Virus record (IMG/VR): IMGVR_UViG_3300049988_000286
Coordinates: 1 to 64,000 of that record
Direction: 5' to 3' (one strand)
Length of the DNA stretch: 64,000 nt
Origin: a virus
Taxonomy: Duplodnaviria > Caudoviricetes
Shown: piece after piece, positions 56,553 through 57,228 of the stretch
Position numbering within the stretch: the stretch's first letter is position 1
Layout of the letters: each line of letters begins with the position of its first letter
Position numbers and translations under genes: made by a program
Notes under the pieces: model-generated
The model's database searches: none
What the model was told of the DNA's origin: nothing
Seen by the model: only the letters and a program-made list of their open reading frames with translations

Positions 56553-57067
56553 GGGGATGACCAACCGAAGTTGATCATCCCGCTTCTGGATCAAGGCCTA
56601 GACCTCAACCCGTCTTTCGAGGTTGGTTTAGCGACACCGCCGTTTTCACGGCTGTGATCCAACCTCGCGGCGACAAGGGGTGAACCCAACGAACCACCCT
56701 TGCAACCGAACTTCCGGAGGGGACGGGGAGGTGAGCGTGCTTTTCAGCATATTCTCCGCCTTCCGGGCGAGGGTCGGCGGACCCCTCCGTGGCGCGACGC
56801 CGAAGCATCGTTGCCGTTTTCCGAGGATGACCAGCATGATACCGAAGTATCTTACCCGCCATCCTCGCGGTCAGGGATTTTCGACTCTGCTCGAAAGCAT
56901 CATCTACGGTCCCTTGACCGATCTCGTAAACTGATTGCCCCGAAGGGCTGTCAAAGAGCAGTATCGACCGAGGCCTATACTTCGGAAGCATCTCGGTAGT
57001 GAGTCATTCAACTCTCTACTTCAATCTAGGTTCCGCCGTTTGTCTTCGGCAGCGCCTCGTTTCCGTT
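56553..57067 (-). ncRNA. candidate 0.5 kb structured ncRNA, family unrecognised
   Basis: TGGACA-18-TATAGA promoter at 57103-57074 with A-tracts upstream; four cUUCGg stems; 5' and 3' complementary segments; ends at 12 bp UUCG hairpin 56554-56581. Confidence 0.62.
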
Positions 57068-57228
57068 GATCCGTCTATAGGGGTGAGGCTTTCGACCTGT
57101 CCAGCACTTTTTTCACAGCCGTGCATTTTTTTCGTCATCACCCTATCGCGCAATCGAACTTCGGTGTTGCGATCCAGACGTGTAATTGATACCCTCGGGG
57201 TTGAAATCTTTTGGAGAACCAAACTCAA

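What the first reader, a model, noticed from the sequence alone, without database searches (positions are those of the whole stretch)
56553..57103. A separate 0.5 kb structured RNA in tandem upstream of the 1.5 kb RNA
Seen: its own promoter (TGGACA-18-TATAGA with upstream A-tracts) and end-to-end complementarity (GGATCAA/TTGATCC, CCTAGA/TCTAGG). It has cUUCGg stems at 56565, 56800, 56842 and 56940, a GAAA stem at 56639-56652 and a long GAGGATG/CATCCTC arm, and ends at a 12 bp hairpin just before the second promoter. It shares ACTACCGAG with the larger RNA. Inference: a second ncRNA, perhaps a partner subunit of a two-RNA complex. The divergently transcribed neighbour is a signal-peptide SNase.
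Basis: partly seen in the sequence, partly recalled or inferred. Interest (0 to 1): 0.72.

Follow-up and report, generated by a model that had tools for sequence, protein, structure and literature searches.

The report
Modular 5' extension of phage GOLLD RNA
The 0.5 kb stretch is a real, transcribed, tightly folded non-coding RNA segment with its own promoter, but rather than a new stand-alone RNA it is most likely the first part of a repeated-hairpin extension placed in front of a divergent GOLLD RNA gene (a known giant phage RNA of unknown function) in a 500-kb leaf-surface phage.

Summary
It is non-coding. The 128-aa ORF has no family match, no ribosome-binding site and no counterpart in relatives.

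The context changes the reading. The neighbouring "1.5 kb RNA" ends in a divergent, tRNA-less GOLLD 3' domain (Rfam RF02032, 30.9 bits, the only hit in the 500-kb genome). Five syntenic relatives were found next to the same SNase gene. The four whose contigs reach that far carry clear GOLLD matches (135-171 bits).

The 0.5 kb piece is the promoter-proximal third of a ~1.1 kb array of 8 repeated two-hairpin modules. The array runs straight across the proposed boundary into the GOLLD core, and its length varies among relatives (about 130 to 1,900 nt).

Both promoters (P1, P2) are of a rare A-tract + TTGAC type that also sits upstream of tRNA clusters in this genome. No terminator separates the two parts, and one metatranscriptome contig bridges P2. 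I therefore favour nested transcripts of one GOLLD locus (about 0.6) over a separate partner RNA (about 0.25).

An earlier follow-up in this scan called the neighbour "no catalogued family"; my result contradicts that.

The parts
57074..57116 (-). Promoter P1. A-tract GTGAAAAAAG at 57116-57107, -35 TGGACA at 57103-57098, 18-nt spacer, -10 TATAGA at 57079-57074. Predicted start near 57067.
   Evidence: Coordinates. The block is conserved in L013, L014 and L017 (A1), and regex matches fall at the same place in five relatives. This motif type has only 8 matches in the 500-kb genome, and others lie upstream of tRNA clusters.
56917..57067 (-). 5' leader of the P1 transcript. It holds small hairpins, the conserved words GACAAAC (57044-57038), GAAGTAGA (57022-57015) and GCTCTTTGAC (56959-56950), a cUUCGg hairpin (56947-56938), and the 'start motif' ACGAGATCGGT (56927-56917).
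   Evidence: An nhmmer profile built from the relatives' P1-proximal regions has its best hit in the window at 57132-56931 (E 0.003).
56613..56919 (-). Three two-hairpin modules (b hairpin directly abutting an a helix, then an A-rich linker). The pairs are b1 56919-56869 with a1 56868-56822, b2 56815-56791 with a2 56789-56715, and b3 56708-56668 with a3 56667-56618.
   Evidence: Module scan, MFE, coordinates.
56550..56612 (-). No U-run follows it.
   Evidence: L013 has a hairpin at the same position with different stem letters (L013 7476-7435).
56474..56549 (-). Promoter P2 and its start module. A-tract at 56549-56542, -35 TTGACG at 56538-56533, -10 TATCAG at 56514-56509, predicted start near 56502, start motif ACGAGATTGGT at 56484-56474.
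   Evidence: An 18-nt block, TCGAAAAAACTTCTTGAC, is identical in L013. The 19-20 nt spacing from predicted start to the CGAGATTGGT motif is the same in the window, L013 and L014.
55950..56440 (-). Five further modules of the same kind, with a helices at 56440-56367, 56336-56262, 56231-56174, 56141-56043 and 56012-55950. This part lies outside the finding but belongs to the same array.
55421..55949 (-). GOLLD 5' domain (the less conserved half of the family).
   Evidence: An nhmmer profile of the relatives' GOLLD cores hits 55902-55696 (E 4.6e-11) and 55581-55440. Two words from this domain, used as a search pattern, retrieved bona fide GOLLD loci L018, L020 and L021.
55034..55420 (-). Divergent, tRNA-less GOLLD 3' domain.
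   Evidence: RF02032 aligns over its full length (1-416) at 30.9 bits with E 2.4e-6. It is the only hit in the whole genome, E 3.9e-7. The score is below the gathering score of 150.
54995..55024 (-). Terminal GC-rich hairpin at the end of the locus, probably a terminator with a weak U-run.
   Evidence: Relatives have hairpins followed by a U-run at the same place.

Best explanation
**What it is.** The 0.5 kb piece is 'unit A', the segment between two tandem stable-RNA-type promoters (P1 start near 57067, P2 start near 56502). Both promoters belong to one ~2.07 kb non-coding locus (57067 to about 54995, minus strand).

**Layout of the locus.**
- A ~1.1 kb array of 8 repeated modules.
- Each module is a hairpin closed by yGG/CCr, stacked directly on a helix that begins C(G/A)RG and ends CYYG, followed by a GAAAnn-type linker.
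- The array is followed by a ~0.93 kb divergent, tRNA-less GOLLD RNA.

**Shown.**
- The module array, its strong folding and its lack of coding capacity.
- Presence of this stretch in RNA libraries in which the flanking genes have no contigs.
- GOLLD homology of the 3' part.
- The same SNase - P1 - array - GOLLD layout in relatives.

**Inferred.**
- RNA polymerase starting at P1 reads through unit A and P2 into the rest of the array and GOLLD, giving nested transcripts with a common 3' end.
- The array folds co-transcriptionally into a chain of stacked hairpin pairs.
- The array is then either trimmed from the more abundant GOLLD core or carried as an appendage of its 5' cap domain.
- The array probably grew by tandem duplication of the GOLLD gene's promoter plus start module.
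For: **The downstream RNA is GOLLD.**
- RF02032 matches the window at 55034-55420(-), over the full model length, E 2.4e-6. It is the only hit in the 500-kb genome.
- Syntenic loci score 170.9 (L013), 168.8 (L027), 140.2 (L014) and 134.7 (L017) bits.
- An nhmmer profile of those cores hits the window collinearly, best E 4.6e-11.

**One array crosses the proposed boundary.**
- There are 8 modules in 57068-55900, against a shuffle mean of 0.2 and a maximum of 3. Three lie in the finding and five lie beyond P2.
- L013 has 9 modules, L014 has 10 and L017 has 3.
- This is the densest 1.2-kb window for the module in the whole genome.
- Stem letters differ from module to module while pairing is kept.

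**No separation between the two parts.**
- There is no terminator-like site between them.
- Contig 56421-56650 of RNA run X1 bridges P2, while the flanking genes have no RNA contigs.

**The promoters are credible.**
- The A-tract + T(T/G)GAC + TAnnn motif matches only 8 times in 500 kb. Two of those are P1 and P2, and others precede tRNA clusters.
- P1 is conserved and P2 is identical over 18 nt in L013.
- Internal promoter-like sites sit 19-20 nt before CGAGATTGGT in three loci.

**RNA-level constraint in relatives.** In L014 against L017, 59 pairs are predicted, none is broken and 4 show changes on both sides.

**Not coding**.

**Literature.** GOLLD has a conserved 3' region and a variable 5' region, lies in phages near tRNAs, and known members are about 700-833 nt (PMC12286853, PMC12990946).
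Against: - The window's GOLLD score (30.9 bits) is far below Rfam's gathering score (150), so membership rests on E-value, synteny and profile homology.
- Only assembled contigs were available, so transcript ends, strand and read-through frequency were not observed. A bridging contig does not prove a single transcript.
- P2 is strongly conserved, so the downstream part clearly has its own start. P1 transcripts might end or be cut before it.
- In run X1, contigs over the 0.5 kb piece have word depth 3.1-3.3, against 65.8 for the contig over 55126-56092. That fits trimming, but it also fits a separate weakly expressed RNA or a mixture of strains.
- Unit A could not be aligned base by base with its orthologues, so direct covariation for its own stems is missing.
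- Sequence-level paralogy of unit A and the next unit is only suggestive (z 2.8).
Confidence: 0.6

Rival explanations
1. First reader's model. Unit A is an independent ~0.5 kb stable ncRNA that starts at P1 and ends at the 12-16 bp hairpin. It is made separately from the downstream RNA and acts with it in trans, for example as a second subunit or assembly factor of the GOLLD particle.
For: - It has its own conserved promoter.
- P2 lies immediately after the terminal hairpin, and both are conserved in L013.
- A P1-to-P2 unit exists in every relative that has two promoters.
- Contig depth differs from that of the GOLLD core.
Against: - The hairpin has no U-run and no terminator-like site was found.
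- An RNA contig bridges 56421-56650.
- The module grammar is the same on both sides of P2.
- The closing helix is not better than chance.
- Unit length varies from 180 to 680 nt among relatives, with no alignable core beyond the first ~150 nt.
Confidence: 0.25
2. Unit A is mainly a DNA-level feature. It would be a duplicated promoter region (tandem promoters that boost GOLLD transcription), and its transcript would be a by-product with no function of its own.
For: - Each promoter-like site is followed by the same start motif at a fixed distance.
- In L014 and L017 a conserved 'RNA' block doubles as TTGACA-18-TATATG.
- Unit A aligns weakly with the next unit (z 2.8).
- The array contigs have low depth.
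Against: - Fold z is -7.3 and cUUCGg loops are enriched 11-fold.
- Module stems differ in sequence but keep pairing.
- In L014 against L017, 59 of 59 predicted pairs are kept despite 18 changed pairs.
- These results point to selection on the RNA fold, not only on promoter DNA.
Confidence: 0.1
3. ORF 56605-56991 (128 aa, minus strand) is a real small protein gene.
For: An ATG-initiated open frame of 128 codons exists.
Against: - It has no Pfam family at E<=1.
- There is no Shine-Dalgarno sequence before the ATG.
- tblastn against five orthologous regions gives nothing below E 0.2 and nothing collinear.
- The longest sense ORFs in the relatives' units are 0-73 aa.
- 3.7% of shuffles give an ORF at least this long.
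Confidence: 0.02

Closest known systems
GOLLD RNA (Rfam RF02032; Weinberg et al. 2009 as cited in PMC12286853; cryo-EM 12-14-mer nanocages, PMC12286853 and PMC12990946)
   Same: - The locus ends in a GOLLD 3' domain preceded by a GOLLD-type 5' domain.
- It lies in a phage near tRNA genes.
- Relatives carry a tRNA in the GOLLD linker, as described for some members of the family.
   Different: - Known GOLLDs are about 700-833 nt. Here 1.1 kb (0.13-1.9 kb in relatives) of repeated two-hairpin modules, with one to three extra promoter-like sites, precede the canonical RNA. That gives loci of about 1.6-2.8 kb.
- Classic GOLLD loci (L018, L020, L021) lack the modules.
- The window's 3' domain is very divergent (30.9 bits) and has lost the tRNA.
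- The 0.5 kb piece itself matches no part of the Rfam model.
ROOL RNA (Rfam; PMC5737381)
   Same: It is a large ornate phage- or prophage-associated RNA near tRNAs, of unknown function, and it forms cages.
   Different: No ROOL match appears at E<=10. Its size (~580 nt) and architecture are different.
Tandem stable-RNA promoters with UP elements (e.g. E. coli rrn P1/P2; general knowledge, not tested here)
   Same: There are two A-tract (UP-like) + -35/-10 promoters in tandem ahead of a stable RNA gene. The same motif type lies ahead of tRNA clusters in this phage.
   Different: The spacing is ~565 nt and is filled with highly structured repeated RNA modules, instead of ~120 nt of leader.

Membership tests
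GOLLD RNA (RF02032), whole locus | 3' domain matches the Rfam covariance model at or above the gathering score (150 bits) | tested here: not met
   The window scores 30.9 bits with E 2.4e-6, over the full model length. It is the only hit in the genome. Among syntenic relatives the feature is met in L013 (170.9) and L027 (168.8) and nearly met in L014 (140.2) and L017 (134.7).
GOLLD RNA (RF02032), whole locus | Consensus helices of the 3' domain can form | tested here: inconclusive
   In the cmscan alignment most helices from model position ~145 to 416 are canonical. The first long helix has several non-standard pairs, and the tRNA/linker hairpin is reduced from 58 to 7 nt.
GOLLD RNA (RF02032), whole locus | Less conserved 5' domain upstream of the 3' domain, homologous to that of other members | tested here: met
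   A profile of the relatives' cores hits 55902-55696 at E 4.6e-11. A two-word pattern taken from this domain retrieved three loci that have Rfam-level GOLLD immediately downstream.
GOLLD RNA (RF02032), whole locus | Phage or prophage context near tRNA genes | tested here: met
   The genome is a 499,572-bp virus record. tRNAs lie at 52186-52361 and elsewhere in the window.
GOLLD RNA (RF02032), whole locus | Homo-oligomeric nanocage assembly | not testable with these tools
   This needs in vitro transcription plus cryo-EM or mass photometry (PMC12286853).
GOLLD RNA, the 0.5 kb piece itself | Corresponds to part of the family consensus (P1-P27) | tested here: not met
   No Rfam match covers 56553-57103 at E<=10. 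Classic GOLLD loci have no such modules. The piece lies upstream of the canonical 5' domain.
   P1 is conserved in relatives and belongs to a rare motif class that also precedes tRNA clusters.
   No terminator-like site was found. The hairpin is followed by an A-run.
   An RNA contig bridges 56421-56650, but contigs cannot show molecule ends.

The most novel reading that the evidence does not exclude
The module array, including the 0.5 kb unit A, is a functional RNA in its own right. It would be a natural chain of stacked hairpin pairs that either stays attached to each GOLLD protomer, giving a 2-2.8 kb protomer and a cage decorated with 12-14 kilobase-long arms, or is released as a second stable RNA that co-assembles with or regulates the GOLLD cage. 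Either case would be the first multi-part or appendage-bearing natural RNA nanocage.
Probability: 0.2. Interest if true: 0.75.

Novelty: new variant of a known kind. Interest (0 to 1): 0.5.

Why it matters
GOLLD is one of the largest bacterial and phage non-coding RNAs. It forms striking RNA-only cages, yet its function is unknown.

This lineage of ~0.3-0.5 Mb phages carries GOLLD genes with three unusual traits:
- a rapidly evolving, kilobase-scale 5' array of repeated modules;
- tandem stable-RNA promoters;
- in the window phage, loss of the embedded tRNA.

That is natural variation which can be used to ask what the 5' side of GOLLD does, whether the mature RNA is processed, and whether the tRNA is essential.

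The result also corrects two readings in this scan:
- The neighbouring giant RNA is not family-less.
- The 0.5 kb piece is not an unrelated second RNA.

Finally, public gene calls place spurious ORFs over these RNAs.

Tried and rejected
- **Phage record search.** blastn (distant mode) of the 2.2 kb region against 50,697 phage records gave no match.
- **Viral contig searches.** Searches with the SNase, the 120-aa protein and the LOV kinase as single queries gave only distant SNases (~35%) or nothing. Those SNase loci have no GOLLD.
- **Shared 18-mer.** Pattern GARTGACTYACTACCGAG in viral contigs gave two hits that share nothing else with the window, so they are chance matches.
- **Metagenome scan.** A scan with the SNase protein returned 71 loci, all at 45% identity or less and none from this lineage.
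- **183-aa neighbour.** Homologues of the 183-aa neighbour led to cellular alphaproteobacterial contigs, not to phages.
- **Five-way RNAalifold.** A run on the P1-proximal region failed because the sequences are too divergent to align.
- **End-to-end closing helix.** It was tested with duplex energies against shuffles in five loci and rejected as evidence.
- **Second module cluster.** A cluster near 479 kb in the genome has short G-U-rich stems inside coding sequence and was rejected as chance.
- **Weak Rfam hits.** The hits inside the piece (chrB-a at 23 bits, toga_FSE, Ocean-VII) are far below their thresholds.
- **Missing RNA contigs.** RNA runs X2 and X3 have no contigs over 56266-57100. 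This is a hole, not a finding.
- **Six of nine pattern hits.** Six of the nine hits showed no further similarity, and I treat them as chance.

Full report
**Setting.** The window is the first 64 kb of a 499,572-bp IMG/VR virus record. Between the SNase gene (57211-57696, +) and a 120-aa gene (54936-54574, -) lies about 2.1 kb without a credible gene. All signals discussed here are on the minus strand.

**Observation.**
- P1 consists of TGGACA at 57103-57098, an 18-nt spacer, TATAGA at 57079-57074, and an A-tract at 57116-57107.
- There are four cUUCGg loops, the GAAA-capped stem at 56652-56639, and the GAGGATG/CATCCTC helix.
- The 12-bp hairpin at 56581-56554 is followed by a second promoter-like site (A-tract 56549-56542, TTGACG 56538-56533, TATCAG 56514-56509).
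- ACTACCGAG occurs twice.

The piece folds much better than shuffles: -239 against -190 +/- 6.7 kcal/mol, z -7.3. cUUCGg occurs at 5.3 per kb in the array against 0.47 per kb in the genome.

- The 5'/3' complementarity is matched by 30% of shuffles, and GGATCAA sits at or before the predicted start.
- The hairpin has no U-run, and no terminator-like site is reported there.

**Not coding.** ORF 56605-56991 fails every test applied.
- It has no Pfam match and no Shine-Dalgarno sequence.
- tblastn finds no similarity in five orthologous regions.
- The relatives have no comparable ORF.
- Its length is reached by 3.7% of shuffles.

**Relatives.** SNase homologues at 52-64% identity led to syntenic loci:
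- L013, a 138-kb contig;
- L014, a 536-kb scaffold;
- L017;
- L027;
- L028.

Each has a gene-free stretch on the strand opposite the SNase. It starts with a conserved promoter block: GTGAAAAAAG, then CTKGMC, then 18 nt, then TATAAG (A1).

**What the neighbour is.** Rfam at permissive thresholds finds GOLLD (RF02032) at the distal end of these stretches.
- L013 scores 170.9 bits and L027 scores 168.8 bits, the latter with an embedded tRNA.
- L014 scores 140.2 bits and L017 scores 134.7 bits.
- L028's contig ends before its 3' domain.
- In the window the wide scan missed it. A narrow scan aligns the full model to 55034-55420(-) at 30.9 bits, E 2.4e-6, with the tRNA-bearing hairpin reduced to 7 nt.
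- That is the only hit in the 500-kb genome (E 3.9e-7).
- An nhmmer profile of the relatives' cores hits the window collinearly at 55902-55696 (E 4.6e-11), 55581-55440 and 55285-55203.
- A two-word pattern taken from this 5' domain retrieved three classic GOLLD loci, L018, L020 and L021, at 185-195 bits.

The '1.5 kb RNA' is therefore a divergent, tRNA-less GOLLD preceded by extra sequence. Published GOLLDs are about 700-833 nt, with a conserved 3' region and a variable 5' region (PMC12286853, PMC12990946).

**What the 0.5 kb piece is.** Reading the relatives showed a repeated module.
- A hairpin whose base is yGG...CCr abuts a helix that begins C(G/A)RG and ends CYYG.
- An A-rich linker (GAAAAT, GAAGTT, AAAGAC and similar) follows, then the next module.
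- A strict scan finds 8 modules in 57068-55900 (shuffle mean 0.2, maximum 3).
- Three are in the finding (a helices 56868-56822, 56789-56715, 56667-56618) and five lie beyond P2 (56440-55950).
- L013 has 9, L014 has 10, L017 has 3, and L027 has none by this strict rule.
- The rest of the window has about 0.13 per equal length, and genome-wide this is the densest 1.2-kb window.
- Stem sequences differ in every module while pairing is perfect. That is covariation among paralogous copies.
- L014 against L017 keeps 59 of 59 predicted pairs, 4 of them with changes on both sides.
- Classic GOLLD loci lack the modules.

The distance from P1 to a conserved landmark (GGGTAAC) in the GOLLD 5' domain ranges from ~130 nt (L028) to ~1,900 nt (L014). 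The array is therefore a fast-evolving addition specific to this lineage.

**Promoters.** The motif A-tract + T(T/G)GAC + 15-19 nt + TAnnn occurs 8 times in 500 kb.
- Two of the eight are P1 and P2.
- Others lie just upstream of tRNA-Lys and of tRNA-Ser/Thr clusters.
- P2 is identical over 18 nt in L013.
- Relatives have one to three such sites in tandem. In the window, L013 and L014 the predicted start lies 19-20 nt before CGAGATTGGT.
- Unit A aligns weakly with the next unit (z 2.8; controls 1.7 and 0.9). This is compatible with duplication of promoter plus start module, but it does not prove it.

**Expression.** Only assembled contigs were available.
- In three leaf-surface metatranscriptomes from different studies, contigs cover 55061-56092. 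None covers the flanking genes.
- In run X1, contigs also cover 56075-56249, 56421-56650 (bridging P2) and 56664-56983 (100% identical). Their word depths are 7.1, 3.3 and 3.1, against 65.8 for the core contig.
- In run X3, the core contig (55076-55938) carries adaptor sequence at both ends.
- These are weak hints that a ~0.9-1.0 kb GOLLD core accumulates and that the array is rarer. Strain mixtures and unitig breaks could give the same picture.

**Verdict.**
- The piece is a genuine structured, transcribed non-coding segment with its own promoter.
- It is best explained as the first unit of a modular 5' extension of a GOLLD gene, transcribed from tandem promoters into nested RNAs (confidence 0.6).
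- A discrete partner RNA remains possible (0.25).
- I found no paper in the held library that links GOLLD with jumbo, huge or mega phages.
- An earlier follow-up in this scan (e1-5341059) reported the neighbour as matching no catalogued family. My contradict that.

Noticed in passing
window 55034-55420 (-) compared with L013 5543-6008, L014 5088-5556, L017 3134-3604 and L027 723-1210: The relatives' GOLLD 3' domains contain an embedded tRNA or tRNA-like element (Rfam tRNA hits inside L014, L017 and L027). The window's copy has only 7 nt at that hairpin, so it is a tRNA-less GOLLD.
   Followed up: partly
window 55076 and 55938: The RNA-run X3 contig over the GOLLD core carries Illumina adaptor letters directly at both ends. 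High-depth contigs in three studies all stop between 55938 and 56092. This is a possible processed 5' end of the mature GOLLD, just after the last module (55950).
   Followed up: no
L013 5464-6072 and 6175-6468; L014 6625-6978; L015 1142-1510: Public gene calls place ORFs of 97-202 aa over the GOLLD and array RNA of the related phages. These are probably spurious.
   Followed up: no
G000:C1 about 266835, 267603 (+) and 401323 (-), outside the window: The same A-tract + TTGAC promoter type lies upstream of a tRNA-Lys x3 cluster and a tRNA-Ser/Thr cluster. It looks like this phage's stable-RNA promoter class. Only 8 matches occur in 500 kb.
   Followed up: partly
L014 7745-7710 and the matching place in L017: The conserved block after P1 (GCTCTTTCAC, then the CCCCTATATGGGG hairpin) also reads as TTGACA-18-TATATG. 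It may therefore be a third promoter, or RNA and DNA signals may overlap there.
   Followed up: no
window 57211-57696 (+) and L013, L014, L017, L027, L028: The signal-peptide SNase gene is divergently adjacent to P1 in all six loci. More distant phage SNases (~35% identity, L003-L010) have no GOLLD beside them.
   Followed up: partly
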